A stretch of DNA of 64,000 nucleotides from a virus: positions 25,581 through 89,580 of IMG/VR virus record IMGVR_UViG_3300012944_000025; one strand, given 5' to 3'. Shown here piece by piece: positions 1 to 43,412 of the stretch (the first letter of the stretch is position 1; each line of letters opens with the position of its first letter). Made by a program: the position numbers and the translations under genes. The notes under the pieces were generated by a model that saw nothing but the letters and a program-made list of their open reading frames with translations, was not told where the DNA came from and did no database searches.

Positions 1-405
1 GGTCGTCACGGTGAGGTCGCCTCGCCCGATGATGGGGCGGCCGTCCGCGGTCGTGCCGTTGACCGTGATCTGCGCGTCACCCAGCTTGCCGGTCGTCGCG
101 ACGTCGGCGTTGCTGCCGTCGGTGCTCACCGACACGGTGACGATCGTGTCGTCCGAGGTGGTCCACACCGGCGGGGTGGGGAAGTCGAACGGGACAGTGT
201 TGCCGGCGGCGTCCTTTTCGGCGAGGGTGACGGAGACGTGCTGGATGTCGGTGATGGTCTTGGCCATGTTCGGTGTTCCTTGCGGTAGGTTGGTGCGGGT
301 CTTCGGCAGCCCGAAGACCAGCAGGACCTCGCCGGGAACCAACGACAGCAACAACTTTACGTTGCGGTCGAGGCGCTCGAGTATGGTCCGCTTGGTCTCG
401 GTCAT
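1..405 (-). CDS. Ig-like beta-sandwich protein, runs off the window edge (alternative start at 267)
   Basis: Own translation: MTETKRTILE...MAKTITDIQHVSVTLAEKDAAGNTVPFDFPTPPVWTTSDDTIVTV...GKLGDAQITV. The 'WTTSD..IVTV' pattern resembles Big-2/Ig-like domains. AAGGA precedes the ATG at 267. Confidence 0.55.
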   Translation of the reverse strand, partial: MTETKRTILERLDRNVKLLLSLVPGEVLLVFGLPKTRTNLPQGTPNMAKTITDIQHVSVTLAEKDAAGNTVPFDFPTPPVWTTSDDTIVTVSVSTDGSNADVATTGKLGDAQITVNGTTADGRPIIGRGDLTVTT

Positions 406-439
406 CGCGGGGAACCTACCAGCACAGAGCGTCCTAGCG

Positions 440-1045
440 CTAGTCCTGGATGAACTCCTCCACGGGAATTTCATCCTCACCTTCGAACCGGCCGGGTGGG
501 TTTCGCGGATGGCTGGCAATGCTTCCTCCACCGCGAGACCAGATACCCGGATTGGGCATCCACTTTATCGACGCCGTCCATCCCATCGCCTCCAACTTCT
601 CACGGCAGTGGTGCTTCGAGTCGCTGCGTCCGGTCGCCAGGCAGCTCATGCAGTCGACATCCCGGCCGCGGGACTCCAGCCACTTTTGGTCCTTCTTGGA
701 AACGCGGTACGCCTTGCACCAGGATGGTGTCCGCTTGCCCCCGCTGTTCCGGTCCATCATGTGGGTGATGCCGTTGATCAGCAGCGGCCAGGAGGTCCGG
801 CGCAGCAGCCCTCGGTTGATGTACCCCTCACGTTCCCACGAGGTCATCCGTGCCTGGGCTAGCACGGTCTGGCCACCCTCCCACAGACGCAGCGTGAACC
901 CCGGGCGGCTCATCAGGTGTCCGATGCCCAGGTTGGCGCGCTCCATGGCGAGCGGGAACCACGCCCAGGCTTCCTCGAGCGACAAGATGTCGGGCACGTG
1001 CCCACCCTGCGCGGCGGTCAGGTACTCCTCTCCACAGAAATTCAT
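440..1045 (-). CDS. H-C-CxxC zinc-finger family protein (GITH...C...VDCMSCL)
   Basis: Contains INGITH...SWC...VDCMSCL, shared with about 13 other ORFs in the window. Confidence 0.65.
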   Translation of the reverse strand: MNFCGEEYLTAAQGGHVPDILSLEEAWAWFPLAMERANLGIGHLMSRPGFTLRLWEGGQTVLAQARMTSWEREGYINRGLLRRTSWPLLINGITHMMDRNSGGKRTPSWCKAYRVSKKDQKWLESRGRDVDCMSCLATGRSDSKHHCREKLEAMGWTASIKWMPNPGIWSRGGGSIASHPRNPPGRFEGEDEIPVEEFIQD

Positions 1046-1052
1046 AAATCCC

Positions 1053-1478
1053 CTATCGAAGTCGCCGAATGCGCGCGACCATCGCGCGGATCGCCGGCGT
1101 CCTCGTCAGCTGTTCGAGCATTCTCGGCAACGTCTCGGGTCGCGGGATAAAGATTCCGAGGGACGACGCCGTCTCCATCCACATCGTGTTCGACCAGGCC
1201 GTCAGATCGTGCGGCACGTCGTGGGACACGCAGATCACGTGCTCGACCGCTCGGGCCTTCAGCTCGAAGCCGACCAATCGCTCGCGCTCGTGCTCCGGCT
1301 CGTTCTCGACGATATCGGTGATTGCCTGGTGGATTCGCGTCCGCGTCCATGGCGGCTCGAGGTGAACGTCCAGCGCGTGACACGCCTCGTGGGCCGCGTC
1401 TCGAAGGTCTCGAGCGTCCGAGCCCCGGGCGCGGACCGCGGCGAGCAGGCCTACGCGTCCCGCCGGCGCAGTAGCCAC
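1053..1478 (-). CDS. Hypothetical protein with HExxH (possible zinc metallopeptidase) motif
   Basis: AAHEACHAL with a downstream Glu (GFELKARAVE); start uncertain. Confidence 0.45.
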   Translation of the reverse strand: MATAPAGRVGLLAAVRARGSDARDLRDAAHEACHALDVHLEPPWTRTRIHQAITDIVENEPEHERERLVGFELKARAVEHVICVSHDVPHDLTAWSNTMWMETASSLGIFIPRPETLPRMLEQLTRTPAIRAMVARIRRLR

Positions 1479-1876
1479 GCTCGGATCGCCGGGTAATGGA
1501 GGTAGAACGCCGGCGAGCAGGGGAGCCGCTCGACCACGTAGGCCGGGTCCCACCACGCCACGTCGTCGTGGTCGAGCATCTCGAGCGAACCCGTGTCGAG
1601 ATTGACGTGATACAGCTCGACGACGAACTGCACCTCGAGGTCCAGGATCGGCGTCGTCGCGATCCAATCGCCGACGACGACGCCGAGGTTCAGCTCCTCC
1701 TTCCACTCCCTGGTGAGGGCATCCTGCGACGTCTCGCCCTCCTCGACCTTTCCGCCGGGAAGCTCCCAGAGACCGGGCCGCTTCCCCACGCCCCGCCGCT
1801 TCCCCATCAAGACTCGGCCATCCTTGTTGACAGCCATCCCGGAAACCACGCACATCGGTCTCGTTGCGATCTTCAT
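1451..1876 (-). CDS. Nudix hydrolase (MutT-like)
   Basis: Nudix box GGKVEEGETSQDALTREWKEELNL preceded by GLWELP. Confidence 0.9.
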   Translation of the reverse strand: MKIATRPMCVVSGMAVNKDGRVLMGKRRGVGKRPGLWELPGGKVEEGETSQDALTREWKEELNLGVVVGDWIATTPILDLEVQFVVELYHVNLDTGSLEMLDHDDVAWWDPAYVVERLPCSPAFYLHYPAIRAWLLRRRDA

Positions 1877-1945
1877 GCCCTGCAGCCTTTCGCACGTTCG
1901 CTTTTGTTGACACACGAATCACCCACGTGTGACCGTGGGCACCTC

Positions 1946-2314
1946 ATGAATCCACAGATCCACAAGGGAAACTACGCCATCATCGGCATCGTTCTCACCG
2001 ACTACGATGGGAACGTCGACAGCACGACGGCCATCACGATGTCGGCACCTGGTTCGCTTGTCGTCGAGCCTGCCGCACCGGGTGCTGCAAACCGTATTTT
2101 CTATGTCAGTGTTCCGGTGTCGGCTACGACAAGCTCCCCCGGACAGCAGGTCGGCTTGTTGGCCACGATCCCCGCCTCGGGGTCTGGCGCCGGGGCCCCG
2201 AACGTGATCAAGTCCGTGACTTTCATTTTCGACACGGTGGTTCCGATCGACCACCGGGCAGCCGCAGCTGCGCCCGGCACCCCGGGTGCGGAGCAGCCCC
2301 TTCCGCACCCGTAG
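1946..2314 (+). CDS. Hypothetical beta-rich protein, possibly a virion accessory
   Basis: MNPQIHKGNYAIIGIVLTDYDG...; coding-like GC3 bias; isolated plus-strand gene. Confidence 0.5.
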   Translation: MNPQIHKGNYAIIGIVLTDYDGNVDSTTAITMSAPGSLVVEPAAPGAANRIFYVSVPVSATTSSPGQQVGLLATIPASGSGAGAPNVIKSVTFIFDTVVPIDHRAAAAAPGTPGAEQPLPHP

Positions 2315-2317
2315 GCG

Positions 2318-2605
2318 CTACCGGTCTGTGTCTTTGGCAAGCTGAGTTCTCCTGCGACGCGCCGCGTCCCCTGCACGGATAAGCGCGTCGAGGCAATCGA
2401 GGCAGTCCGTGTCGGCGACCGCGGTTCCGACCTTCAACGAGACCCGCCCGCACCAGGTCTCGTCGGACATTCGTCCAGTGTCGAGGCGCTTTCCGCGCGT
2501 CAGGTGGCGCACGCCGAGAGCGTACACCGGTGGCACTCCCGCCGCACTCTGCTGTAGTATTCCTGGTCGATACAAATCACCTCGCCGGAGCCGTGACCGC
2601 ACCAC
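2318..2605 (-). CDS. H-C-CxxC zinc-finger family protein
   Basis: LGVRH...TWCG...DTDCLDCL; start uncertain. Confidence 0.5.
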   Translation of the reverse strand: MVRSRLRRGDLYRPGILQQSAAGVPPVYALGVRHLTRGKRLDTGRMSDETWCGRVSLKVGTAVADTDCLDCLDALIRAGDAARRRRTQLAKDTDR

Positions 2606-2790
2606 GTCAACCGTGCGGCGCGTACCAGACAGCCCATGCAATCGACTTGTCGCCGCCAGCTTGCCGGCAACAGGTTCCGATAGCAAAGCCGGTCACCGTA
2701 GTCCTCGACGCCGCACAAGGTAACCAAGCTCGCGAAGCCGATTACGTTGTAGTGGACGACGCGCCTTCGGTCCGTGACCTTGTGAATCAC
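2500..2790 (-). CDS. H-C-CxxC zinc-finger family protein
   Basis: DRRRVVH...TLCG...VDCMGCLV. Confidence 0.55.
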   Translation of the reverse strand: MIHKVTDRRRVVHYNVIGFASLVTLCGVEDYGDRLCYRNLLPASWRRQVDCMGCLVRAARLTWCGHGSGEVICIDQEYYSRVRRECHRCTLSACAT

Positions 2791-3023
2791 CCGACGCGCT
2801 CCGCCGCGAGGCACGTCATGCAGTCGACAAGATTCTCGGGCTTGCGCAGATGCGACAGCGCGCCACCGTGCTTGTCGATCAGCAGCCGACGACAGTGAAA
2901 GTGGAGCACGATGTCGTCGTACGACCCGATGCGCAGCTGCGCCTTGTGCGTGACCCCGTCGTCGGTCGCCGCGTGCACCGCGTAGATGCCTGTGTTGACC
3001 GTTAGCACGAAGCCTTTACGCAT
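2787..3023 (-). CDS. H-C-CxxC zinc-finger family protein
   Basis: DDGVTH...FHC...VDCMTCL. Confidence 0.65.
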   Translation of the reverse strand: MRKGFVLTVNTGIYAVHAATDDGVTHKAQLRIGSYDDIVLHFHCRRLLIDKHGGALSHLRKPENLVDCMTCLAAERVG

Positions 3024-3985
3024 CACGGTGCTTATTGAACGCGGCGACCAGCTCCTCGTTGCGCTCGGCGGCGCGCTTCTTCGCGCGCTGGAGAAGCTCG
3101 ACCATCCGGTCGACATCGGCCTCCGATGCGAACAGCAGGCTGTCGTTGGTGTCGATCCGGACCTGCCACCGGGACATCCCGAGCGCGACGTCGACCATGA
3201 ACGGCTTGCCGCCGACGAGCAGGCCGTCGATGTTCTCTTCGCCCCGGGGCATCAGCGGGGCTCGGCCTGGTTGCGTTGCATGATGAACGCGGTCATCGCA
3301 TCCCGTGCCTTCTCGGAGGCCTCCGCCCGGCGACGAGCGATGTCCTCGACGCGACGGATGACCTCCTCGCACAGCGACCACAATGCGGCCTCGAGGGTCT
3401 CACCCTGCGTGCTCGTCGTGTGGTCCTGACCGAGAATCTTTGTCGAGACCACGAAGCCCCATGTGCGGTCGCTCAGGTGCGAGTCGTCCTGGTCGTCGTA
3501 GATGCGCTGCCGCTTGAAGCCGACGTCCACGGACAGACTCTGATCGCCCCACCCGGTGAGCTGGCCGAGCAGGGTCAACAGCTCGGGCGTCGTCGGATGA
3601 ACTCCGCCGTGCGCGGGACAACGGCCTCTCCAGGTCGCGTTCTCCGCGCAAACCGAGGCGGGCGGAGCGCCCATCGAATGCGTGCATCTCATGGCATCAC
3701 GTGCTTTCTCTCGGCTCGACCGCGGAGCGGCTGCGTCTCCGGGACGTGCGCTCGAACCATCGCGAGCGCGTCCGCATCCCCGACGCCGGTCCGCTCCCGG
3801 ATCATGTCGATGATGGTGTCGAACTGGAGCTTCTCGCCCGAGTCCAGCCCCTTGCGGATGGTGTCCCGCCGGGTCAGCTCCTCGGACAGGGCTTTCTCGA
3901 GAGCCTGCAGTAGGTCGCCATCGAGACGCAATGCGTCCGCAACAAGTTGTCGGATTTCAGGATGATAGTAGGGGTCTTGGCTCAT
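3016..3985 (-). other. Three tightly packed hypothetical CDSs (3016-3252, 3252-3692, 3689-3985)
   Basis: Overlapping start/stop codons and coding-like composition; no recognised motifs. Confidence 0.55.
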
Positions 3986-3994
3986 TTTCCCTTT

Positions 3995-4011
3995 TGCTCA
4001 TTACATAAGCG
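3995..4011. promoter_or_regulatory. Palindromic operator-like site TGCTCA-N5-TAAGCG
   Basis: Matches the six-site consensus TGyTyA-N5-TrArCA; lies in a divergent intergenic region 10 bp upstream of the 3985 start. Confidence 0.5.
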
Positions 4012-4114
4012 TGACGCAGGCGCCCGTCGAGCTTTCGCGGCCGTGCGGATTCGCTCGCGCTGAAAACGACGCGCCAGTCTTGTGTCAATAGCCGAGACAG
4101 GCGCAAAACAAGGC

Positions 4115-4474
4115 ATGTCCAACGTGCTTATCGTTGACGACGTCCCGGACATCACGCACACGATGTCCATTCTGCTCCAGCTTCGCGGGCATCGAACCGC
4201 CGAGGCGTTCACGGGCGCCCAGGCGATACAGCTGATGAGGACCCGCTGCTTCGACGCCTTTCTGCTCGACGTCAGCCTTCCTGACATCAGCGGGATCGAG
4301 GTCGCTCGCGCGGTCCGCCAAAGGTACGGTCAGAAGCCGAAGATACTCGCGGTTACCGGGTGGGGACACCGCGAGATGCGGACGCGCTGCCTCGGCGCGG
4401 GCTTCGACTATCATGTGACGAAGCCGGCGGACGGGCGCCGTATCATCGCGCTCATCGAGCGTGACAAGTCATAG
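4115..4474 (+). CDS. Single-domain response regulator (CheY-like receiver)
   Basis: VLIVDD acidic pocket, FLLDVSLPDISG phosphoacceptor, AVTG Thr and GFDYHVTKP Lys are all present. Confidence 0.92.
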   Translation: MSNVLIVDDVPDITHTMSILLQLRGHRTAEAFTGAQAIQLMRTRCFDAFLLDVSLPDISGIEVARAVRQRYGQKPKILAVTGWGHREMRTRCLGAGFDYHVTKPADGRRIIALIERDKS

Positions 4475-4550
4475 CGACCAGGCAGGTCATGCAGTCGATC
4501 TCGCCGAACGCGAGGTCTCCATCTCGCACTTGCCAGCGCCGATCAGGCAC
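4452..4550 (-). pseudogene. Truncated remnant of the zinc-finger family (IDCMTCLV half only)
   Basis: Own translation VPDRRWQVRDGDLAFGEIDCMTCLVAMTCHAR*; an upstream in-frame stop removes the GxTH half. Confidence 0.4.
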
Positions 4551-4659
4551 GACGCCTCTTGTACGCGCTCACCGCAACGGCGCCCCGACGCCGTGTGTGG
4601 GCCTGCACCCCGGCACCGACGCGTAGCAGTCGGAGCAGGATCCGCAGAAGCGCCTTCAT
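4543..4659 (-). CDS. Small basic protein (38 aa)
   Basis: Own translation MKALLRILLRLLRVGAGVQAHTRRRGAVAVSAYKRRRA*; ATGA overlap with the upstream gene. Confidence 0.4.
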   Translation of the reverse strand: MKALLRILLRLLRVGAGVQAHTRRRGAVAVSAYKRRRA

Positions 4660-5048
4660 CGGCGCCTTCCACGGATCCAGAACTTCCGCCTCTTGTCGTC
4701 AAAGATCGCTGTCGACTTTCCCGTTGTTCGTGGCGTGCTGATCAGAATCGTGCCGCTCGACCGCGACGACATTCGCCCGGTGCTCGTGCGGAACGGTGGT
4801 AGCGGCGCGCCCGGCGGGCGAACCAAGCACGCCATGCAGTCCACCTCCTTGCCTGGCGCCGCCGGCGTGTTCGCGGGGATGTAGCTCCCCGTGCACCACC
4901 AGCTGCTGCCCTCCTGCGTGACATAGTGGCCCCGTTTCGCGGGGTTGCGCCGACGCTTTTGCTTCGCGGTCTTGACGAACCTGACGGTGCCGCGGACGTG
5001 GTGGGTGACGCCGTGCTCGTCGGTCGCCTCGCTGATCCCCCTGGTCAC
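4656..5048 (-). CDS. H-C-CxxC zinc-finger family protein
   Basis: DEHGVTH...WWC...VDCMACLV. Confidence 0.65.
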   Translation of the reverse strand: MTRGISEATDEHGVTHHVRGTVRFVKTAKQKRRRNPAKRGHYVTQEGSSWWCTGSYIPANTPAAPGKEVDCMACLVRPPGAPLPPFRTSTGRMSSRSSGTILISTPRTTGKSTAIFDDKRRKFWIRGRRR

Positions 5049-5233
5049 TTCTTGTTCTTGTAGAATATCGCGATCGTCACGCAGTGATACTCGTTGTCCG
5101 AGGACTGCGTGAGCCGCACGTCGGTGATGACGAACGTCGGGTTGCGCTTGCGCCACGCGGTCACGTCGTCACCCATCTTCTCGCGATCCACATGCTTCGA
5201 TACGCTGAACATCGCCATTCCATCGAAATCCAT
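5045..5233 (-). CDS. Small conserved protein of a myxobacterial-type family (TQSSDNEYHC motif)
   Basis: FS...REKMGDDVTAW...TQSSDNEYHCVTIAIFY matches, from memory, a ~60 aa family common in Myxococcota; strong SD (AGGAG). Confidence 0.65.
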   Translation of the reverse strand: MDFDGMAMFSVSKHVDREKMGDDVTAWRKRNPTFVITDVRLTQSSDNEYHCVTIAIFYKNKK

Positions 5234-5576
5234 GTCTGTTCTCCTGTTGCCGTGTCCTGACGCTGCGTTGCGTCGCGCCCTCGTCCTCCGCGCGATGTCC
5301 CACCGGCCGTTGCCGGGCAGGGACGGAGCGACTGTGGAGGCCGCCGTTCGTCCTTGCCCGGGGCAGCCTGTCGGCTACTTCAGGGGTTTGACGTCCACGG
5401 CGGTCTCCTTTCCGAGGTGCTCAACGGGTGCTGCTTCGCGCGGATCTACGGGATGGTCTTCAGGAAGCCCTCGAGGGTGATCGTGACCTCCGCCTTGTCG
5501 TAGGCGTACTTAGCCGAGGAGCGCTCGGCCGACCGCTGGATTCCGTAGGTCACTTGCGTGGTCTTCATCGTTGTCA

Positions 5577-6014
5577 CTACCTTCTCGGCGCCGGGCGCCG
5601 GGGTGTCATCAGCGGCCCCACGATGGTATGGCCTCCGATGTCGTCGTCATCGTCGATTTCGTTGCGGATCTCGTCGGGCGTCGGCACGGGGTGCCGCGGC
5701 TTGATCGCGGGCCCCTTCAACGTGGAGGTCCGCGCGGGCTTGAGCACCGGCGCCGGCCCCCTCGGGGAGAACAGCGGCCCGATGATCGTCTTGCCGTTCG
5801 GGTCGGTGTCCTCTTCGCCGCTGAAGTCGGTCCGTGCGAGCGGAACTTCCTGCTCGAAGCCCTCACGGTCCTCGAGCGCGCCGCGCATGATGATCTCGTC
5901 GTCGGCGTCCAGGTACACGTAGGTCCCTGGCACCAGCTCGGCCACGCCCAGCGTGATCGTCAGCCGCTCGCCGCCGTTGGCGAACAGCGTCTCGTCGTCC
6001 ATATCCCAGTCCAT
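5577..6014 (-). CDS. Acidic, Pro-rich hypothetical protein
   Basis: GAGGAGG SD; very Asp/Glu-rich. Confidence 0.55.
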   Translation of the reverse strand: MDWDMDDETLFANGGERLTITLGVAELVPGTYVYLDADDEIIMRGALEDREGFEQEVPLARTDFSGEEDTDPNGKTIIGPLFSPRGPAPVLKPARTSTLKGPAIKPRHPVPTPDEIRNEIDDDDDIGGHTIVGPLMTPRRPAPRR

Positions 6015-6099
6015 GCGTCCTCCTCTCGGGCTTGCGATACCGATTGCCCTGACGCCAGTGGCGTCATCTCCTCCTCGCCTCTCGCCGCCTGCTCGCCCG

Positions 6100-6393
6100 C
6101 TACTCGACCGCGGGGGGCCACTCTTCCGGCTTGGGCGCCGCGTGCATCGCCTGGATGGCTCCCTTGTACCCGTTGCGCTGAGCGATCACGACGTTGAACG
6201 CCGCGAACGCGTCCTTCGAGGTGCCCGACGGATCCACGCCCCGGGTTCCCGCGACGTACACGAACCGCCACATCTCGTCGGTACTCAGCTTCGCGATCTC
6301 GGGATCCATCCGGTCGGCGAGCCCCGGGTCGTTCCCCGGGGTTCCCTGCGCGAACGCCTCGAACAGCTGGTCTGCAAGCTCTTTTCCAGTCAT
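6100..6393 (-). CDS. Hypothetical protein
   Basis: AAGGAG SD before MTGKELAD. Confidence 0.55.
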   Translation of the reverse strand: MTGKELADQLFEAFAQGTPGNDPGLADRMDPEIAKLSTDEMWRFVYVAGTRGVDPSGTSKDAFAAFNVVIAQRNGYKGAIQAMHAAPKPEEWPPAVE

Positions 6394-6419
6394 CGATTTC
6401 TCCTTCGTGGTTGTCTCGG

Positions 6420-6665
6420 TCACATTAGCCTGATGCAGGCCATGCACGTCACGCTGGTAATTAGCGTCGACACGCGCTTGACTTGGTTGACGTGTGGGTT
6501 TGGGCACTTCCAGCCTTCGCAGGCCAGGGAGAGCTTCGGCTTACCGGCTTTCTGCAGCTCGCGGACGATGTTGCGCCCGGAATCGTTCGCCTTGCCGTGC
6601 GTCTCGGAGTACGGCGCCCAGTGGGTGATGCCGACGCCGTCTCGGACTGCGATACCTACGGCCAT
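6420..6665 (-). CDS. H-C-CxxC zinc-finger family protein
   Basis: DGVGITH...LAC...VTCMACI. Confidence 0.6.
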   Translation of the reverse strand: MAVGIAVRDGVGITHWAPYSETHGKANDSGRNIVRELQKAGKPKLSLACEGWKCPNPHVNQVKRVSTLITSVTCMACIRLM

Positions 6666-6904
6666 TATCGGATGCCTTCCATCTCAATCTCGATGGTCAC
6701 GGCGCCGTCTGGGTGGACGGAGATGACCCTGCCGATCATGTTCTTGTTCGTGTCGAACAAACATCGACGAGCCTCGGCGACGAGGCACGACATGCAGTCC
6801 ACGACCGCGTCGTCCGCCGGGCGAGGGTCCATCGGCTCGAGGTTGATCCCGCACCAGGTCCGGCGGAGGTCGTCCATGAACTCGTCGACGCCGTGAGTGA
6901 TCAC
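6665..6904 (-). CDS. H-C-CxxC zinc-finger family protein
   Basis: ITH...TWCG...VDCMSCLV. Confidence 0.65.
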   Translation of the reverse strand: MITHGVDEFMDDLRRTWCGINLEPMDPRPADDAVVDCMSCLVAEARRCLFDTNKNMIGRVISVHPDGAVTIEIEMEGIR

Positions 6905-7491
6905 GGCCCCCTCCCGACGAGCGTCATGCACGTCATGCAGTCGACCATCGCACTCTCATAGGTCGCGCGGGCCTTGCTGAGCCTGTCGAAGTTGACGGCG
7001 CTCGCGCCCGCGAGCGGGTGTATCCCGAGCAGGTGCGCGCCACAGACCCCGCGCAGGCGCCTGCCGGCTGGCAGCCTCGCGTGCGTGATCCCCTGGTCGT
7101 CGACCCACGGCGTGGGCGTCCCGAGGTCCAGCGACAGCAGGAGACCGCGGGGCGTGATTACGCCGTTCGTCTCGATCAGGTCGCGGGTGAGCAGCGCGCT
7201 GCGCGAATTCGGCTGCGCCATGCGCTCGTTGACCAGCACGTTCACCCACGTGTTGGGATCGAATGGCACCGCCCCCGTGGCGAACGGGTCATCGAGCTTG
7301 CGGCACCTGTCGCACGTTGCCTGGCGACCGTTCGCGGGGGTTACAGGCCTGTCGAACGGCTTGCTGCACAGCGCGATCACGGTGGTCGGACTCGACCGCG
7401 TCAGGTTCGCCACGTGAACCGCGGTGCCCTGCGAGGCCACGAAAGCCCAGCTCAGCACGGTCACGATCGCCTTGCTGCTCGGACGAGGCAC
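6901..7491 (-). CDS. Protein with two H-C-CxxC zinc fingers
   Basis: AVH...ALC...ATCDRC and DQGITH...GVCG...VDCMTCM. Confidence 0.65.
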   Translation of the reverse strand: MPRPSSKAIVTVLSWAFVASQGTAVHVANLTRSSPTTVIALCSKPFDRPVTPANGRQATCDRCRKLDDPFATGAVPFDPNTWVNVLVNERMAQPNSRSALLTRDLIETNGVITPRGLLLSLDLGTPTPWVDDQGITHARLPAGRRLRGVCGAHLLGIHPLAGASAVNFDRLSKARATYESAMVDCMTCMTLVGRGP

Positions 7492-7727
7492 GCCATGCAG
7501 TCGATCGGCTTGTCGCTGACGATCGGGTAGAGGGGGATGCCAAACAGCCTACAAGGCCAGCCCCAGTCGTGCGTCACGCCGTTCTCGTCGATGGTCGTCG
7601 CGCCGTGCGGCGCGCAGAGCCCGCAAGGAATGCCGTCGCTTCTCGGTGCCGTCCGATGACAGCGCGAGCAGCGGTCTCCTGTACAGGGGCGCCGTTCACC
7701 CGGACGGGCTGGCATCGTCTCGATCAC
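7461..7727 (-). CDS. H-C-CxxC zinc-finger family protein with extra N-terminal CxxC pairs
   Basis: DENGVTH...WPC...IDCMACLV. Confidence 0.6.
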   Translation of the reverse strand: MIETMPARPGERRPCTGDRCSRCHRTAPRSDGIPCGLCAPHGATTIDENGVTHDWGWPCRLFGIPLYPIVSDKPIDCMACLVRAARRS

Positions 7728-8750
7728 TCCGCGTCCGGCCCCGCGAGGAGCCAGTAGAGGGCAACGTCAATTTCGGTATCGCCTTGCTTGGCGAACGTTG
7801 TGACCAGGTCCCACTTTTCCACTCCTCGGGCATCCTTCCCTCGCTTCTCTATAATCATGGGGCTGCTGTTGACAAAGAACCTGTTTCCCTTCTGTGTACC
7901 ACCTGGCGCCACAACGCGGTAATCCCCCGTGCTCGATCGAATGCGATGGTCGACCGACCTCGTGAGAACGCAGTCCCCCGGCTCGGGCGCTTCGAGCATT
8001 CGTGGGACCCTGCGGTCGTTCGGGTCTTTGTTCTCAGGCATGTTGTCTCCTTACTTCGAGGTTTGCATCGACCCCGGTTTGGTCAGCTCCACGATCTTGG
8101 CCCAGGCGCGGAGCAGGTTCATGTCCGTGTAGTGACTATCGGCCATTCGCAGGACCTCGCCCATCGCGAAGACCTGGATATCCTCGACGGTGATGTGCGA
8201 CTTGGCTGCGCTGACCTGGTCGAGAACGATGAGCCACACGTTCTCGGTGATGATGTCGGATGCGGCGCTTGCGAACCCGTCAGACCCCGTCGCGGCCCGG
8301 GTGTGCAGCAGCGCGAGGCGCTTCTTCGCCTTCTTGGTGACGTCGGCCAGCCGCGCGTCGAGACGCTTCCGGTCGACGCAGTCGTACATCGCCTGCGGCA
8401 CGTCAGGCCGCCTTGAGGGCCTTGAGCGTCATGCGGTGCGCCTTGCGCATCGACTTGTCGAGCACCGACCAGTCGGTGACGTGCAGGCCAACGTTGCGCG
8501 CGTACTCCTTGAGTCGCAGCACGTCCCACGCTCCCCTGGTCAGCCGCATCCTGCGGCTGGTGAGGACCTTGGCCCCGTCGTCGAGCGGCGTGTAGCCGCT
8601 GACGAAGATCAGCTGGTCCTCGGTTTGGCTGAGCAACACGACGACCTCGTCGTGGCGCAACGAGAAGCGGGTGCCCTGCTTGACGATGTGATCGAACGAC
8701 GTCTGTTCCGACAGGCGGAACGAGACCTTCTCCAGCATCTTGAATTTCAT
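7724..8750 (-). other. Three hypothetical CDSs (7724-8041, 8051-8401, 8403-8750)
   Basis: Packed ORFs with SD-like elements; no recognised motifs. Confidence 0.55.
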
Positions 8751-9124
8751 TTGGAATCCTCCAACCATTTCATCCGACGTGTGAACAGCCTGTCCTTCGC
8801 AGCCGGCGACAGCCCCTCCATGCAGGGTCCGCCGGCCCTCATGTCCGAGAAGAAGTTCTCCTCGATCTGCGACCACAGCTCGAGGTAGGTCCAGCCCTCC
8901 TCGCAGCCGAAGTGATTCCGGATCTCGACGCACGACAAGCACGTCTTGAACTCCGACCACGACCCGTCCCACAGGCCCTTGACGTGCTCGTACTTCGTAC
9001 CCTTGGGGATCGTCTCGTTACACTCGGTACAGCGATGGTCCTTGGCCGCCTTGCGCGTGTGCACGTTGCTCACCGACGGGTGGTCGCCGTGCTCGCTGCT
9101 GAGGGGGCAGCACGTGAATGTCAC
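8747..9124 (-). CDS. Phage zinc-binding protein
   Basis: RKAAKDHRCTEC...IPKGTKYE...KTCLSC, a pattern common in small phage proteins. Confidence 0.6.
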   Translation of the reverse strand: MTFTCCPLSSEHGDHPSVSNVHTRKAAKDHRCTECNETIPKGTKYEHVKGLWDGSWSEFKTCLSCVEIRNHFGCEEGWTYLELWSQIEENFFSDMRAGGPCMEGLSPAAKDRLFTRRMKWLEDSK

Positions 9125-9513
9125 GCGTCCTCGAGCGCGACGTCGTACTCGTCGTCGTCCCAGTGCGCGGATTCGCCGCAGCGCGGGCACGTCCAGAACC
9201 AGTCCGGACGGTTCAGCTGACGCAAGTACTGCTCCTCGGTGAGGAACTGCTGGCCGTGATCGTCGCAGAGCACCGCGAACGGCGTGCGCCGGGCCACCAG
9301 GCACGACATGCAATCGACGGGATCGTCGGTGGTCGGTCCGGTTCCGTCGGGGGCGAGTCGCGCGCGGACCACGCGGAAGCCCATCGCGGCGAGGTTCACG
9401 CCCGGCGGCTCGTCGAACACGATGACGCCGCACGCCGTGGTCGCCGTCCGCCAGACGCGGACGTCGTGCACCAGGCCGTCGACGCAGCGCACGTTCGCCC
9501 GGTGCGCCGTCAC
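9121..9513 (-). CDS. H-C-CxxC zinc-finger family protein fused to a C-terminal CxxH...CPRC module
   Basis: DGLVH...TACG...VDCMSCLV...CDDH...TCPRCG. Confidence 0.6.
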   Translation of the reverse strand: MTAHRANVRCVDGLVHDVRVWRTATTACGVIVFDEPPGVNLAAMGFRVVRARLAPDGTGPTTDDPVDCMSCLVARRTPFAVLCDDHGQQFLTEEQYLRQLNRPDWFWTCPRCGESAHWDDDEYDVALEDA

Positions 9514-10253
9514 TCGGTGATCCCCTTGGCAGCGAGGTAGTCCTTCTGCGGGATGTACGCGCCGGTGGCCTTGTCCCGGAACCCCCACCCACCGGTCTTG
9601 CGTCCCGCCACGAACAGCGACCAGCTGCCCACGGCGGGGTTCAGCAGGTCCACGCGGTGGAAGTCGTCCCCGCGGATGACGTTGACGGTTCCGGGCATCA
9701 CCACCCGCGTCTCCCCGCCCCGCTCCTCGCGATACCCGCCGGCCAGGACGATCGCCACGGCCAGGTCCCATGGGTGGTTGTGCTGATCGCGATCGGCGTC
9801 CCCGCGGTGGAACTTGTGTAGGAACACAGCGAACGGGAGATCGCTGCCCTCGTCGTCGACGTCGCGCGGTCCCTCGGGCCACAGGTACCATCGCGTGAGG
9901 TACGGATCTCCGTTGGTCGAGATCGTCCGGTTGGGTAGCTTCTCGGTGACCGCCTCGAGCTTGCGAACCACGGTGATCTCGTCGTGCGCGATCAGCCCGA
10001 GTAGCCCTGCGACCCGGTTCGAGGCGAGGACCAGAAGCTCGGCGGCCGAGGACGGCATGGCCTCCTCGATGGCCGCGAGGCGCTGTTGCAGCGCGGGAAC
10101 GTTGACCACGCCGTCCTCGACCGAGCCGTTGGCGATTATCGTTTCAAGGTTGTCGATTCGGCGCTCGAGGACTCGGAGGTCTCGTTCGCGGTCGCTCTTG
10201 ACGAGTTCAAACGCCAATTTCAGGCGCTCGTGGTCCCGTTTCAATGCGTCCAT
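9510..10253 (-). CDS. Coiled-coil plus cupin-like (metal-binding) phage protein
   Basis: PYLTRWYL...FLHKF...D.D...HNHPW...GGYREE...FHRV...WSLF...WGF. Confidence 0.7.
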   Translation of the reverse strand: MDALKRDHERLKLAFELVKSDRERDLRVLERRIDNLETIIANGSVEDGVVNVPALQQRLAAIEEAMPSSAAELLVLASNRVAGLLGLIAHDEITVVRKLEAVTEKLPNRTISTNGDPYLTRWYLWPEGPRDVDDEGSDLPFAVFLHKFHRGDADRDQHNHPWDLAVAIVLAGGYREERGGETRVVMPGTVNVIRGDDFHRVDLLNPAVGSWSLFVAGRKTGGWGFRDKATGAYIPQKDYLAAKGITE

Positions 10254-10254
10254 C

Positions 10255-11710
10255 TCATGCCAGCTCACGTGTCCTTGCCTTTCTCGCGCGGTGCCGCGCG
10301 TATGAAATTCCTGCGATGACAGGCCAGACGGGCCACGCCGCGCAGCCGAGCGCGACACGCCACCATGGGCCGGTCTTGCGCATCAGTCCGCCGAGCGCCG
10401 CGGTGATGGCCGCCCATACGACCACGATCGTCACCGCAACCTCACGTACAACCCCATCCTGTGGGCGCCATCGTGTCCCTTCGGCAGCTCGCAATACGAG
10501 TCCTCGCAGTGAGGTGGCTTGATGGTCTCGGCCAGGCCTGACCCGCCGCAAGCCTGACACGATTGCCAGCCATGCCCCCATCCGACGAAGGTCATCCCAA
10601 CGGGATGATTCACCTCCTCAGTGTCCGGCGCGCACGATGGGCACAGCTCTCGTCCGGCGCCGTCGAGAGTGATCTTGCTCATGGGTCGATCTTCCAGTGC
10701 CCGACGGCAACGCCATCCTGGCCTCGAATGTCGCCCTCCTTGGTCTCGATCGAGATGAACTTGTTGTGCCCGACGGACAGCAGGTACAGGTACAGCGCGA
10801 CGAGCTTGCGCCCCTTCTCGTCGTCGACGACATCAGGGATGTCGATAACCGCGGTCAGGCGCACGTCTTCCTCGCCTTCTTGCGCCGGGGTGTCCGGGCG
10901 AGCGTCCGGGCCGTGGCCTCGGCTCGCTCCCGTTCCTCGGTCGCGAGCCGCTCCTGGTGGAGTTTGTGGTACTTCATGAAGTCACTCCTGACGCGGTTCA
11001 GGTCCTCCACCTGGCCGGTGAAGGTGCTGAGGACGTACCAAGACCGGCCGGGCATCAGCGGGTGACTGCCGTACTGCAGGCGGCAGAACCGGATCTGAAT
11101 GGCCTTGGCCTCCTCGATGGTGTCGACGCTGAACACGGGCAGCGCCCTGCCGTTGAACACCTTCTCCTTGGTGACGGTGTCCCGATAGGTCACCGTGCCG
11201 TCCGCGCAGACGTGGATCATGTAGCGCCGCTTGAACGCGGCGTTGATTTCCTCGTTGGTTATGGTCATTTGACCCCGCTGCATCGCGGGCATCGCAGCTT
11301 GTCCTTCGGGCGGGCGGTCAACGTCCAGCCGTGAGGCAGCGCGTCCTCTTCGATGGTGAAGGTTGCCAGCGTACGCCCCAGTCCTTGGGATTCGTAGCTG
11401 TTGTACCGAGCCGTCGCCGGTAGGATCACCGACTGCGTCTCCTTGCACTCGTCGCAGCGCAGCGTGCACGGTATCTCGAGCATCCTCGTTCTCCTCCGGT
11501 CGACAGGTTACCCGACAGCTAGCCGTGCAGCCCGTTGCGCACGCGCTGGATGCGAACGAGCGCGTTGCTGTACGCTTTCTTGTCCGTCTCGTCCGCCTGC
11601 TTGTTTTGACCGAGCTTGTGGATTCGCTCCTCCGCCTGTGACAGCACCTCGCTGACCTTGGTTAGGCATTCGCTAAGCTCGATGTCGATGAAACCTTCAG
11701 CCCTGCTCAT
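10255..11710 (-). other. Run of small hypothetical CDSs (10255-10434 membrane, 10431-10682, 10679-10864, 10855-11268, 11265-11483 Zn ribbon, 11519-11710)
   Basis: Mostly overlapping start/stop codons; CxxC pairs in some. Confidence 0.5.
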
Positions 11711-11922
11711 GTGTTGTCGCTTTCTTGCCGTACGAGGCAGGTCATGCAATCGACATCGGCGCTGCGGGGACGGTCCTTGTCGTCCCAGCAGCTCCGCAAC
11801 CGACGACTGGCCCCGCAGGGAGCCCGCGCCGTGTACCAGCCGGCGTGGCGGTTGTCGCGACGCTGGTCGGAAAGGGGTAACCAGGCATGCGTGATGCCCG
11901 TCTTGTCGCGCCACGCGCTCAC
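11707..11922 (-). CDS. H-C-CxxC zinc-finger family protein
   Basis: DKTGITH...APCG...VDCMTCLV. Confidence 0.7.
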   Translation of the reverse strand: MSAWRDKTGITHAWLPLSDQRRDNRHAGWYTARAPCGASRRLRSCWDDKDRPRSADVDCMTCLVRQESDNT

Positions 11923-12069
11923 GGCGGCCTCCGGCAGCTGACGACCATCGATCCGCCGATCGTGACTGGCCGCATATCACCACAAAGCGGGACGGACCTC
12001 GGTCTCGAAGGTCGCACGATCGCCGCGCCACCCGCGATCGCAACCAACAGAAGGACTACTAGACCCGCG

Positions 12070-12977: not shown

Positions 12978-12980
12978 GCT

Positions 12981-13004
12981 TATCCTTCGAGCGCCTCGCG
13001 CTCC
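12981..13004. repeat. Direct repeat, copy 1 (TATCCTTCGAGCGCCTCGCGCTCC)
   Basis: 23/24 identical to 13245-13268, the 3' end of the mazG-like gene; flanks the peptide precursor gene. Confidence 0.85.
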
Positions 13005-20051: not shown

Positions 20052-20068
20052 AGCGTCTCCTGGTCGGT

Positions 20069-20085
20069 TGATTATAAGATAAACA
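20069..20085. promoter_or_regulatory. Operator-like site TGATTA-N5-TAAACA overlapping a minus-strand TATAAT
   Basis: In the divergent gap between 20051 (-) and thyX (+). Confidence 0.55.
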
Positions 20086-20096
20086 GCGGAGGAAAC

Positions 20097-25519: not shown

Positions 25520-26206
25520 CTACTCCTCCATGCCAGGGATGGGACCACGCGAGGCTCGAACCGGCCCGAACGTCCTGCGATGAACCTGGTCGAGCAGGCC
25601 GTCGCGTTGCAGCTGGTCGAGGTGCTTCGGCGTGGGATACCCGCGATTCTTGTCGAATCCCCACCCCGGATACTCGCCCGCGATTCGCGTGACATGGCGG
25701 TCATGGCACGCCTTGGCCACGATCGACGCCGCGCCGATGCGCCAGTCGAGCGCGTCGCCGCCGGGAACCATGCGAACGGGGCAGGGGACGTCTGGCCTCG
25801 CGAGGTCCCCGTCAACCAGAACGAGAATCGCGTCCTTCTCGATATGGAACTTTCCGGGGTTGACCGTCATTACCAATTGCTCGACGCAGCGCTGGATGGC
25901 GAGTCGCAGAGCCTCGGGAAACACCTCCCGCAGAAGCCTGGCGTCGATCTCCGCCGCGGAACGCTCGATGATCGCGTGCGCCACCGCGGCAGCCCGGATC
26001 GCGAGGTCGAGCGCCCCGCGCTGCTCGGGTACCTTGATCTTTTTCGAGTCGTCGGCCGCCAGCGTCTTGACGCCGCGCACGCCGCGCCACGCCGTTGTCA
26101 CGCGGGGCGCGTCCGCGCGGAACGCGACCGCGGCGACCACGAGAGGGCCCGCGATCGCGCCGCACCCGACTTCGTCGACGCCAATTACATAGCGGGGTTC
26201 ACTCAC
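25520..26206 (-). CDS. rnhB: Ribonuclease HII
   Basis: IGVDEVGCGAIAGPLVVAAV, DSKK, VDG, IGAASIVAK, GYPT..H, HRRTF. Confidence 0.92.
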   Translation of the reverse strand: MSEPRYVIGVDEVGCGAIAGPLVVAAVAFRADAPRVTTAWRGVRGVKTLAADDSKKIKVPEQRGALDLAIRAAAVAHAIIERSAAEIDARLLREVFPEALRLAIQRCVEQLVMTVNPGKFHIEKDAILVLVDGDLARPDVPCPVRMVPGGDALDWRIGAASIVAKACHDRHVTRIAGEYPGWGFDKNRGYPTPKHLDQLQRDGLLDQVHRRTFGPVRASRGPIPGMEE

Positions 26207-26427
26207 TTGCGAAGCCCAAGGTGTTGCATTATTGCTGCATCCATTCCGTGCTTGAATGCGAGATTCTCGGCCTTGAGGGGACTAATACCGACAAGACATG
26301 TCATGCAATTTATTTCAGCGTCTGTTTCCACGCCTACCTTATAGGCACTACATACGGTTCCCCAGGGCGCCGCTTCGTGAACTATGCCGTCTTGCTCAAT
26401 GTGTAAGCTACTTGTCGAGGTACCCAT
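26203..26427 (-). CDS. H-C-CxxC zinc-finger family protein, low GC
   Basis: QDGIVH...TVC...INCMTCLV. Confidence 0.6.
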   Translation of the reverse strand: MGTSTSSLHIEQDGIVHEAAPWGTVCSAYKVGVETDAEINCMTCLVGISPLKAENLAFKHGMDAAIMQHLGLRK

Positions 26428-43176: not shown

Positions 43177-43412
43177 TGATTGACTGCATGACATGCCTTT
43201 GTGTCGAAGCCCATTGCCCCTCCTCGTGGACGCACGTCGACAACGTCGGCATCACGCATGGGTTCGTCGAAGGGACGGCGAGCGACCCGAGTTTCTCGCT
43301 GTCATCCAAGCTTTGTGAATTGAATCTATACGAGGGTGAGCCGCTCCCTGTTTGGGGATTCCGGGCAGTGGATGAGGTGTTCGTCATAAGGACGTCTGAT
43401 GCCCATCGTTGA
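43173..43412 (+). CDS. Circularly permuted H-C-CxxC zinc-finger family protein
   Basis: IDCMTCL comes first, then DNVGITH...KLC; lower GC; overlaps both baseplate neighbours. Confidence 0.55.
   Translation: MMIDCMTCLCVEAHCPSSWTHVDNVGITHGFVEGTASDPSFSLSSKLCELNLYEGEPLPVWGFRAVDEVFVIRTSDAHR

What the first reader, a model, noticed from the sequence alone, without database searches (positions are those of the whole stretch)
440..11922. Large paralogous expansion of a small H-C-CxxC ('GITH...C...VDCMTCL') zinc finger
Seen: the motif [D]xxG[IV][TV]H-x(n)-C-x(n)-[VI]DCM[TSAG]CL, with variants, occurs in ORFs 440-1045, 2318-2605, 2500-2790, 2787-3023, 4656-5048, 6420-6665, 6665-6904, 6901-7491 (two fingers), 7461-7727, 9121-9513 and 11707-11922. 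It also occurs at 26203-26427 and 43173-43412, with a remnant at 4452-4550. The four ligands and the DCM..CL cap are conserved, while the loops between them differ completely in length and sequence. Synonymous codon variation (GAC/GAT, TGC/TGT, ACG/ACC/ACA) points to selection on the protein. Known: the His-Cys3 ligand order resembles zf-HC3-type fingers. Inference: a fixed zinc scaffold displaying hypervariable loops, possibly a repertoire of host-protein binders such as anti-defence or takeover effectors, in the early region.
Basis: partly seen in the sequence, partly recalled or inferred. Interest (0 to 1): 0.78.

Follow-up and report, generated by a model that had tools for sequence, protein, structure and literature searches.

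The report
Phage multigene family of His-Cys3 mini-proteins
An uncultured large soil phage carries about sixty very diverged copies (fourteen in this window) of one tiny, uncatalogued, probably zinc-binding protein, an unusually large gene family for a phage whose function has not been tested.

Summary
The whole 89.6-kb viral contig, which CheckV rates 48% complete, holds 60 such ORFs. The strict motif [DN]CMxCL occurs 44 times against 0.03 expected.

His, Cys and CxxC are invariant in 102 of 102 aligned members. Twelve copies are circularly permuted, with CxxC first. Codons vary synonymously. Orthologues in related phages give dN/dS of 0.22 in the core and 0.54 in the loops. AlphaFold2 gives a confident model (pLDDT 86.6) with no match to a solved fold.

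No Pfam, PHROG or NCBIfam family reaches threshold. Pfam zf-HC3 is the nearest, at 17.3 bits against a 25-bit cut-off.

The loops differ between paralogues but are conserved between orthologues. These are therefore old, individually maintained genes, not fast-changing ones.

My best reading is a set of zinc-stapled small binders made from tightly packed gene arrays. The targets and the timing of expression are untested.

This scan had already noted the family on this contig and in at least six other phage genomes.

The parts
440..1045 (-). 201-aa ORF with one type-A His-Cys-CxxC domain (residues about 89-144) between N- and C-terminal extensions
   Evidence: Profile A3, E 4e-9; independent E 1.6e-11 with filters off. 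GC3 is 0.82.
2318..2527 (-). Type-A copy with a divergent cap (DCLDCL).
   Evidence: A3 E 4e-7. Candidate starts are listed. An orthologue on metagenome locus L059 is 86% identical, dN/dS 0.16.
2500..2790 (-). Type-A copy (96 aa) with a Cys-rich C-terminal extension
   Evidence: A3 E 1e-7. Orthologue on L059, 60% identical, dN/dS 0.27. Overlaps the next gene by 4 nt.
2787..3023 (-). Type-A copy (78 aa)
   Evidence: A3 E 2e-9. Orthologue on L059, 71% identical.
4452..4550 (-). Remnant that keeps only the CxxC cap (32-aa ORF). Its 3' end overlaps the end of the convergent receiver-domain gene at 4082-4474.
   Evidence: A3 matches profile positions 49-68 only, E 1e-5. The receiver-domain gene is identified.
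4656..5048 (-). Type-A copy (130 aa) with a long H-to-C loop and a basic C-terminal tail; pI 11.5
   Evidence: A3 E 4e-7. pI. Orthologues: P0052, 60% identical, and L080, dN/dS 0.33.
6420..6665 (-). Type-A copy (81 aa) with cap TCMACI
   Evidence: A3 E 1e-4. Orthologue on L030, 84% identical, dN/dS 0.22.
6665..6904 (-). Type-A copy (79 aa) with a C-terminal extension
   Evidence: A3 E 7e-13.
6901..7491 (-). 196-aa ORF with one supported type-A domain at its C-terminus. An N-terminal H..C..CxxC stretch is not significant.
   Evidence: Domain at residues 129-193, independent E 6.8e-9. First stretch at residues 22-49, independent E 0.099.
7461..7715 (-). Type-A copy (84 aa) with very short loops and an extra N-terminal Cys cluster
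   Evidence: A3 independent E 1.1e-8. Orthologue on L076, 66% identical, dN/dS 0.27.
9121..9513 (-). Type-A copy (130 aa) with a C-terminal extension that carries a further CxxC
   Evidence: A3 E 2e-10 and 3e-13.
11707..11922 (-). Type-A copy (71 aa)
   Evidence: A3 E 1e-15. Orthologues: P0151, 65% identical, and L068, dN/dS 0.50.
26203..26427 (-). Type-A copy (74 aa, cap NCMTCL) within the replication-gene region
   Evidence: A3 E 2e-8. The neighbouring helicase is identified.
43176..43412 (+). Circularly permuted (type-B) copy with ligand order CxxC, then His, then Cys. It lies between the baseplate-J-like gene (41200-43176) and the 791-aa ORF at 43399-45774 (no Pfam match) and is the only copy on the + strand.
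   Evidence: A2 profile E 7e-22. AlphaFold2 model: residues 1-54 have block-mean pLDDT 82-95, with helix 5-11 followed by three strands.

Best explanation
The window holds 14 members, 12 of them within 440-11922, of an uncatalogued phage-specific family of stand-alone mini-proteins, mostly 55-100 residues long.

Each member is built on one invariant tetrad. A His sits in a beta-hairpin (G-[VI]-[TV]-H). A Cys is followed by Gly (T-x-C-G). A CxxC starts the C-terminal helix (V-D-C-M-x-C-L-V-x-E-A-R). The tetrad most likely holds one Zn2+ that staples an otherwise very small fold.

All conserved residues belong to this scaffold. The N-terminus, the two interior loops and any tail are specific to each paralogue, yet they are conserved between orthologues in related phages. 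I therefore read each copy as a separate small binder with its own target.

The genes are transcribed as tightly packed, translationally coupled arrays in the non-structural part of the genome. I infer that they act on different host or phage macromolecules during takeover of the cell.

The permuted CxxC-first copies arose inside such arrays when gene boundaries moved by about a third of a repeat. Two-domain fusions are the likely intermediates.

Shown here: the family, the invariant residues, purifying selection, the age of the paralogues, the confident predicted fold, and the absence from catalogued families.

Inferred: zinc binding (probability about 0.85), the binder role (about 0.4), and the timing of expression.
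For: Scale and reality:
- 60 ORFs with at least 62 domains lie on the 89.6-kb contig.
- The strict motif occurs 44 times against 0.03 expected.
- GC3 is 0.8-0.9 in the six window copies my gene list retained (440-1045, 2787-3116, 6420-6665, 6665-6931, 6901-7491 and 10855-11469).

Ligands:
- H, C, C and C are invariant in 102 of 102 members. The Met of CMxC is present in 101 of 102.
- One type-B subfamily has Cys at the His position and 'PAH' where the Cys should be. That is the kind of exchange expected at a metal site.

Selection:
- Pooled dN/dS is 0.36.
- By region it is 0.22 in the core, 0.54 in the loops and 0.39 at the termini, from 13 orthologous pairs.

Age and individuality:
- The best hit outside the contig is usually 50-75% identical, against 25-45% for the best paralogue on the contig.
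- Loop identity is 51-52% between orthologues and 18-19% between paralogues.
- Neighbouring genes stay neighbours on L059 and L071.

Fold:
- The type-A AlphaFold2 model has pLDDT 86.6 and pTM 0.73. It has a hairpin, a short helix plus strand, and a helix that starts at the CxxC.
- The type-B model has the helix first and then three strands.

Permutation by boundary shift:
- In type B the CxxC-to-His distance is about 21 residues. In type A the matching path is a tail of median 8 plus a head of median 14.
- In type B the distance from Cys across the gene boundary to the next CxxC is 24-32 codons. In type A the matching loop has a median of 25.
- Tandem and mixed A+B proteins exist: contig 8640-9173, and P0001, P0002, P0040 and P0051.

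No common nucleic-acid-binding surface:
- pI runs from 4.1 to 11.5. Twelve of 44 copies are below 6 and 16 of 44 are above 8.
- No conserved basic positions lie outside the scaffold.

Phage-specific:
- 270 representatives among 1.84 billion proteins score E<=1e-3. Of the 110 I read, 109 were small proteins of this pattern.
- Related contigs reach 183-204 kb.
- The only related IMG/VR contig found has 19 matches.
- 47 of 59 metagenome loci carry the family, and 30 of them carry two or more copies.
- The only hits among 185,579 species genomes were 5 isolated chance matches.

Arrays:
- Stops and starts commonly overlap by 4 nt, and a GAGG ribosome-binding site often sits inside the preceding gene's EAR codons.
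Against: - No metal-binding data exist. I could not read model coordinates, so the geometry of the predicted site is unchecked.
- The alignment used for folding consists of the family alone.
- No expression data were found, so 'early' is inferred only from strand and position.
- Loop dN/dS of 0.54 shows relaxed purifying selection, not the positive selection expected of an arms-race effector set. This test is crude: pooled Nei-Gojobori estimates on 13 pairs.
- Sixteen of 44 copies are basic and one has pI 11.5, so some may bind nucleic acid.
- The host is unknown and no target was identified.
- The first Cys codon is TGC in 54 of 54 copies against an 84% background. This leaves room for some constraint at the DNA level.
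Confidence: 0.5

Rival explanations
1. The copies are nucleic-acid-binding proteins. They would be either specific transcription factors or structural DNA/RNA binders, as Iyer et al. proposed for the zinc-ribbon expansion of Bacillus phage G.
For: Small zinc modules often bind nucleic acids. Sixteen of 44 copies have pI above 8, and window 4656-5048 has pI 11.5 with a basic tail. The phage G analogy was read as a passage in PMC7824862. The Atlas gave a weak structural lead to the N-terminal tRNA-binding part of pyrrolysyl-tRNA synthetase, TM 0.52-0.54.
Against: Twelve of 44 copies are acidic, with pI down to 4.1. No conserved basic or aromatic surface positions lie outside the metal scaffold. 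Sixty or more regulators is far too many for a genome of about 185 kb. No solved DNA- or RNA-binding fold matched; the best Z was 2.5-2.6.
Confidence: 0.2
2. The tetrad binds a metal or cluster other than zinc (for example Fe, or a redox-active site), and the family acts in redox or metal handling and not as a set of binders.
For: The ligand set of three Cys and one His is not specific to zinc. The invariant Met inside CMxC (101 of 102) is unexplained.
Against: Sixty diverged paralogues with paralogue-specific loops do not suit a single chemical job. No match to any Fe-S or redox family reached significance.
Confidence: 0.1
3. The array is a largely functionless by-product of unequal recombination at the conserved motif. 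The copies would persist by drift, or the motif would serve as a DNA-level site.
For: The 18-23-nt cap is the only long conserved DNA stretch and recurs every 200-250 nt. Boundary-shifted and fused copies show that the array does recombine. The first Cys codon is TGC in 54 of 54 copies against an 84% background. One remnant lies at 4452-4550.
Against: Other motif codons vary synonymously, close to background usage. His and Cys are invariant despite variable spacing. dN/dS is 0.16-0.64 in the 23 of 27 pairs with unsaturated dS. Orthologues and gene order are retained between phages. Only one clear remnant lies among the 14 window copies.
Confidence: 0.07

Closest known systems
Pfam zf-HC3 (PF16827), a short 'zinc-finger' family with no described function. 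According to the Atlas rows it occurs mostly in Actinomycetota.
   Same: Both are small stand-alone proteins. The family name implies one His and three Cys. It is the only Pfam family hit by more than one member (3 of 102). One contig copy aligns to profile positions 26-62 of 67, from the middle Cys through the CxxC. An Atlas cluster in which 23% of members carry zf-HC3 is the nearest by structure, TM 0.57.
   Different: All hits are below the curated cut-off: best 17.3 bits against 25, and 15.7 bits in the six-frame search. 99 of 102 members do not hit the family at all. The signature VDCMxCLV cap, the copy number, the phage setting and the permuted form are not features I could attribute to zf-HC3. 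I could not obtain zf-HC3 sequences for a profile-profile test.
Lineage-specific expansion of a zinc ribbon in Bacillus phage G, about 35 copies (Iyer et al. 2021, PMC7824862; I read the passage)
   Same: Both are many-copy small zinc-module families in a large phage with untested function. The authors call the phage G expansion 'unprecedented'.
   Different: A zinc ribbon has two CxxC knuckles. This family has one CxxC at a helix start plus an isolated His and an isolated Cys. The copy number here is higher: 60 on a contig rated 48% complete. I made no sequence or fold comparison with the phage G proteins.
Pfam DUF3039 (PF11238), an actinobacterial single-copy protein. I recalled its motif as having the order His, Cys, CxxC, and an earlier scan note named it as closest.
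   Same: Only the recalled ligand order and the small size.
   Different: It gave no match on the contig at E<=10, while one of the 14 control genomes scored over the cut-off. It is not among the 20 Pfam families hit by any of the 102 members.
Multigene families of large eukaryotic DNA viruses, such as the ankyrin, BTB-kelch and MGF families. This comparison is recalled, not tested here.
   Same: Both are arrays of diverged paralogues on one scaffold in the non-core part of a large viral genome, generally linked to host interaction.
   Different: The folds are unrelated, the proteins are much larger, and the hosts are eukaryotic.

Membership tests
Pfam zf-HC3 (PF16827) | Score at or above Pfam's curated cut-off (25 bits) | tested here: not met
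   The best of 102 members scores 17.3 bits, E 0.0058. The six-frame search of the contig gave one hit at 15.7 bits. 99 of 102 members have no hit at E<=10.
Pfam zf-HC3 (PF16827) | Shared fold or metal site | tested here: inconclusive
   An Atlas cluster in which 23% of members carry zf-HC3 is nearest by structure (TM 0.57) and scores 0.84 by features. I could obtain no zf-HC3 structure or alignment for a direct comparison.
Pfam DUF3039 (PF11238) | Match to the family profile | tested here: not met
   No match on the contig at E<=10, while one of the 14 control genomes scored over the cut-off. It is absent from the families hit by the 102 members.
Zinc ribbon (as in the phage G expansion) | Two zinc knuckles (CxxC ... 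CxxC), each on a beta-hairpin | tested here: not met
   The consensus has a single CxxC, which lies at the start of a helix. The other two ligands are a lone His and a lone Cys 8-33 residues apart.
Zinc ribbon (as in the phage G expansion) | Structural match to solved zinc ribbons | tested here: inconclusive
   No zinc ribbon appears among the Foldseek or VIA-align rows. The best Z is 2.5-2.6, to unrelated proteins.
Treble-clef zinc finger | A zinc knuckle supplies two ligands and the N-terminus of a helix supplies two more (definition as quoted in the bioRxiv passage read) | tested here: not met
   The helix-start CxxC is present: C54 and C57 precede helix 55-63. There is no knuckle, because His19 and Cys35 sit on separate elements.
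PHROGs and NCBIfam families | A significant hit to any catalogued family | tested here: not met
   PHROGs: 1 of 102 members hit one family at E 0.0025, and that family has no function assigned. NCBIfam: 0 of 32 members.

The most novel reading that the evidence does not exclude
A clade of soil phages of about 185 kb maintains a heritable 'library' of 60-80 or more zinc-stapled mini-binders on a fold that matches no solved structure. Each paralogue is tuned to a different host target, such as a defence, signalling or housekeeping protein. The array itself generates new architectures, including circular permutants, by shifting gene boundaries. That would make this the largest effector-type multigene family known in a bacteriophage and a natural minimal scaffold for protein binders.
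Probability: 0.3. Interest if true: 0.85.

Novelty: new variant of a known kind. Interest (0 to 1): 0.7.

Why it matters
Phage genomes are compact and rarely tolerate large paralogous families. The one comparable case I found in print, about 35 zinc ribbons in phage G, was called unprecedented by its authors.

This contig is rated about half complete, yet it spends roughly 15% of its length on 60 copies of one mini-protein. That figure is my estimate: 60 ORFs at a mean of 77 residues. Each copy is kept by selection and has orthologues in related phages.

If the copies are binders, the family is a ready-made catalogue of small inhibitors or modulators of bacterial proteins, on a metal-stapled scaffold of about 50 residues with three freely variable segments. 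It also shows circular permutation arising within a gene array, with the fused intermediates still present.

The family is absent from Pfam, PHROGs and NCBIfam, so these genes are currently annotated only as hypothetical proteins.

Tried and rejected
Catalogued families. Pfam and PHROGs scans of 10 window ORFs gave only scattered hits at E>0.03. NCBIfam gave 0 of 32. PHROGs gave 1 of 102. DUF3039 gave nothing.

Solved structures by sequence. The only hit was a cytochrome heme-site look-alike at E 1.4. I rejected it because that motif there is CxxCH.

Fold searches.
- Type-A model against PDB with Foldseek: no hit at E<=1e-3.
- Against BFVD: no hit at E<=1e-3.
- VIA-align against 48,161 chains: best Z 2.5.
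- Second look at 830 chains: best Z 2.6.
- Type-B model: no Z>=2.
These blanks do not prove a new fold, because the domain is very small.

Fused forms. No protein of 229-2000 residues carried the domain. This is weak evidence.

Named relatives. Megablast of window 1-12000 against the phage collection found no match. tblastn of P0001 against the same collection found no match. The polymerase is under 30% identical to anything in that collection, so the phage has no named relative that I could see.

Host. No tRNA genes and no family members in species genomes. The host is not identified.

Expression. No RNA holder was listed. Only small shares were found in soil metagenome DNA runs. I did not lay reads.

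Regulatory signals. Promoter- and terminator-like sites in 1-13000 were at or below shuffle expectation.

Literature. No paper held DCMTCL, DCMxCL, CMTCLV or DCMSCL. A search for phage zinc-finger multigene families found nothing relevant among the 15 listed of 174 papers. zf-HC3 appears in one preprint, and only in passing.

An apparent motif. 'LHDLPG' upstream of many ORFs is the previous gene's cap read in another frame. It is not a separate motif.

Not attempted. Complex prediction was not used, because I claim no specific binding pair. A profile-profile test against zf-HC3 was not possible, because I had no way to obtain zf-HC3 sequences.

Full report
**What is there**

The window is bases 25581-89580 of a single 89,580-bp IMG/VR virus record. 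The record is linear, and CheckV rates it 48% complete. GC content is about 65%.

The record carries phage genes:
- a family-A DNA polymerase;
- a DinG-type helicase;
- a ThyX-like protein;
- a protein with a ribonucleotide-reductase-type ATP cone;
- a baseplate-J-like protein.

The polymerase is under 30% identical to anything in the phage collection. Megablast of window 1-12000 found nothing.

**The observation**

A six-frame regex search finds the cap [DNE]C[ML]xC[LMIV] at 13 places in the window. A slightly wider pattern finds 54 places in the contig, one of which (window 8927-8944) belongs to an unrelated Cys-rich ORF.

The strict form [DN]CMxCL occurs 44 times in the contig and 11 times in the window. 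Thirty order-2 Markov simulations gave a mean of 0.03.

I built profiles from 32 type-A copies (A1) and from 102 sequences (A3). They find 60 ORFs on the contig at E<=0.01.

Two details need correcting. The site at 4452-4550 keeps only the cap. The claimed first finger of 6901-7491 is not significant (independent E 0.099).

**Protein or DNA motif?**

Codons at the cap vary synonymously, close to the usage of twelve long genes in the window. Leu is CTG 27, CTC 11, TTG 5, CTT 4. Val is GTC 18, GTG 13, GTT 6, GTA 3. The x position uses twelve different codons.

One oddity remains. The first Cys codon is TGC in 54 of 54 copies, against a background of 84%.

'LHDLPG', seen upstream of many ORFs, is simply the previous gene's cap read in another frame.

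Of 44 copies on the contig, 27 had a partner covering at least 75% of their length in the metagenome or IMG/VR loci I had fetched. In 23 pairs dS was not saturated, and dN/dS ran from 0.16 to 0.64. Pooled over pairs with at least 50% identity, dS was 0.66 and dN 0.24, a ratio of 0.36.

I then split 13 type-A pairs by region. The core gives 0.22, the loops 0.54 and the termini 0.39. These are protein-coding genes under purifying selection, strongest around the ligands.

**Anatomy**

In 102 of 102 aligned type-A sequences (27 from this contig, 75 from databases) one His and three Cys are invariant. The Met of CMxC is present in 101 of 102.

The local consensus is [DG]-G-[VI]-[TV]-H-A, T-x-C-G-[IVL], and [DP]-V-D-C-M-[TAS]-C-L-V-x-E-A-R.

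Segment lengths in residues:

| Segment | Range | Median |
|---|---|---|
| His to Cys | 8-33 | 15 |
| Cys to CxxC | 14-35 | 25 |
| Head before His | 3-29 | 14 |
| Tail after CxxC | 4-42 | 8 |

AlphaFold2 on alignment A3 modelled contig copy 15612-15806. This copy lies outside the window but belongs to the same family. The model has pLDDT 86.6 and pTM 0.73. It shows a hairpin carrying His19, then Cys35, then a short helix and strand, and a terminal helix that starts at Cys54-x-x-Cys57. I could not read coordinates, so the geometry of the site is unchecked.

No solved or predicted viral structure matched:
- Foldseek against PDB and against BFVD gave no hit at E<=1e-3.
- VIA-align gave best Z values of 2.5 and 2.6.

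**Circular permutation**

Twelve ORFs have the cap one to ten codons after the start, followed by G-I-T-H and then the Cys (alignment A2). They are nine consecutive genes at contig 1454-3515, plus contig 2-202, contig 5547-5777 and window 43176-43412. Eighty database proteins match this form.

The model of the window copy is confident for residues 1-54. It has the helix first and then three strands.

The spacings fit a shift of gene boundaries within a tandem array:
- Type-B CxxC to His is about 21 residues. This matches the type-A tail (median 8) plus the next gene's head (median 14).
- Type-B Cys across the boundary to the next cap is 24-32 codons. This matches the type-A second loop (median 25).

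Fused two-domain proteins exist: contig 8640-9173, P0001 and P0002. So do mixed A+B proteins: P0040 and P0051.

In one type-B subfamily the His position holds Cys and the Cys position reads PAH. This applies to contig 2801-3043 and 3264-3515, and to P0198. P0210 and P0228 keep His at both positions. His and Cys exchanging at exactly these columns is what a metal site predicts.

**Distribution**

The A1 profile, searched against 1.84 billion representative proteins, gave 270 hits at E<=1e-3. I read 110 of the 150 listed. Of these, 109 are proteins of 57-159 residues with the same pattern. One is a 2801-residue false positive.

The sources are Logan, ENA, JGI and NCBI contigs of up to 183-204 kb. 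The only name given is 'hypothetical protein', and no Pfam domains are recorded.

A degenerate DNA pattern for the cap found the following:
- In IMG/VR, one other contig. It is 156 kb long and has 19 profile matches.
- In metagenomes, 59 loci, of which 47 carry at least one family ORF and 30 carry two or more. There are 145 ORFs in all, and the densest locus has 13 in 5.3 kb.
- In one genome for each of 185,579 species, only 5 isolated hits. Just two drew any profile hit, and those covered only the cap and a seven-residue fragment, so I read all five as chance matches.

DNA runs sharing part of the stretch are soil metagenomes, but the shares are small.

**Age and individuality of the copies**

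For most copies the best database hit outside the contig is 50-75% identical over the full length. The best paralogue on the contig is 25-45% identical.

Twenty of the 32 type-A copies had a non-identical database partner at least 45% identical and covering at least 70% of their length. For these 20 pairs, identity by region was as follows:

| Comparison | Core | Loops |
|---|---|---|
| Orthologue pairs | 72% | 51-52% |
| All paralogue pairs | 44% | 18-19% |

The paralogue loop figure is close to what an optimised alignment of unrelated sequence gives.

Adjacent genes stay adjacent on L059 and L071.

So the loops are not hypervariable over time. They are paralogue-specific and maintained.

**Mechanism**

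Every conserved residue is a ligand or packs next to one. No conserved surface exists that would suggest one shared partner.

pI runs from 4.1 to 11.5. Twelve of 44 copies are below 6 and 16 of 44 are above 8.

The genes are co-oriented with the replication genes and opposite to most structural genes. They commonly overlap by 4 nt, and a GAGG ribosome-binding site often lies within the preceding gene's EAR codons.

I read this as a metal-stapled minimal scaffold that displays three variable segments. The proteins would be made from translationally coupled arrays, with each paralogue binding its own target. Zinc binding is an inference (about 0.85). The binder role, with host or phage proteins as the most likely targets, is weaker (about 0.4). 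'Early' timing is not shown.

**Rivals**

- Nucleic-acid binders, as proposed for phage G. The acidic members and the sheer number of copies argue against this.
- Another metal or a redox role.
- A largely neutral product of recombination at the cap. Selection, orthology and synteny argue against this.

**Comparison with known families**

Pfam zf-HC3 is the nearest named family. It is hit by 3 of 102 members, and the best score is 17.3 bits against a cut-off of 25. The six-frame search of the contig gave one hit at 15.7 bits. An Atlas cluster in which 23% of members carry zf-HC3 is the nearest by structure, at TM 0.57. Membership is not met, and distant kinship remains open.

DUF3039 gives nothing. 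The ligand layout is neither a zinc ribbon nor a treble clef.

The closest biological analogue in print is the zinc-ribbon expansion of about 35 copies in phage G, which its authors called unprecedented (PMC7824862; passage read, supplement closed). The copy number here is higher.

**Earlier notes of this scan**

The scan had already described this family on the overlapping window of the same contig and in at least six other phage genomes. My tests agree with those notes on the family, the permutation and zf-HC3. They disagree with the one note that named DUF3039 as closest.

**Verdict**

The family is uncatalogued, the fold is confidently predicted but unmatched, and the function is unknown. 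I class it as a new variant of a known kind, namely expanded zinc mini-protein families in large phages. Interest is about 0.7.

Noticed in passing
window 4082-4474 (+): A stand-alone response-regulator receiver domain gene (Pfam Response_reg, E 5e-23) lies on the opposite strand inside the array. Its 3' end overlaps the family remnant at 4452-4550, as if its insertion had truncated a copy.
   Followed up: partly
window 1451-1915 (-): A NUDIX hydrolase gene (Pfam NUDIX, E 1e-14) sits among the mini-protein genes.
   Followed up: partly
window 8747-9121, 10431-10682 and 11265-11483 (all -): Three further small Cys-rich ORFs that are not members of the family (profile E 0.4-2). Their motifs are CTEC...CLSC, then CPSC...CQACGGSG, then CxxxCxxC...CPRC. 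None has a Pfam hit.
   Followed up: partly
whole contig, cap motif: The first Cys codon of the cap is TGC in 54 of 54 copies, although TGC is only 84% of Cys codons in twelve long genes. The second Cys is TGC in 49 of 54. This may be a small constraint at the DNA level, or inheritance from a common ancestor.
   Followed up: partly
contig arrays, e.g. contig 1454-3515 and 4098-5018; window 2500-3023 and 6420-7491: Successive genes mostly overlap by 4 nt (RTGA) or by 1 nt. The conserved C-terminal E-A-R codons of one gene often supply the GAGG ribosome-binding site of the next. This would partly explain why the tail after the cap is conserved.
   Followed up: partly
window 7461-7715 (-), 2500-2790 (-) and 9121-9513 (-): Some copies carry extra Cys clusters outside the core: CxxxCxxC...CxxC at the N-terminus of 7461-7715, and CxxC-containing C-terminal extensions in the other two. 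These may be second metal sites.
   Followed up: no
window 19206-20930 (+): A 574-aa ORF in which only residues 317-465 match ThyX (E 4e-12). The long N-terminal part has no Pfam match.
   Followed up: no
window 9510-10358 (-): A 282-aa ORF immediately upstream of a family copy, with only a sub-threshold cupin hit (17.3 bits against a cut-off of 27.2).
   Followed up: no
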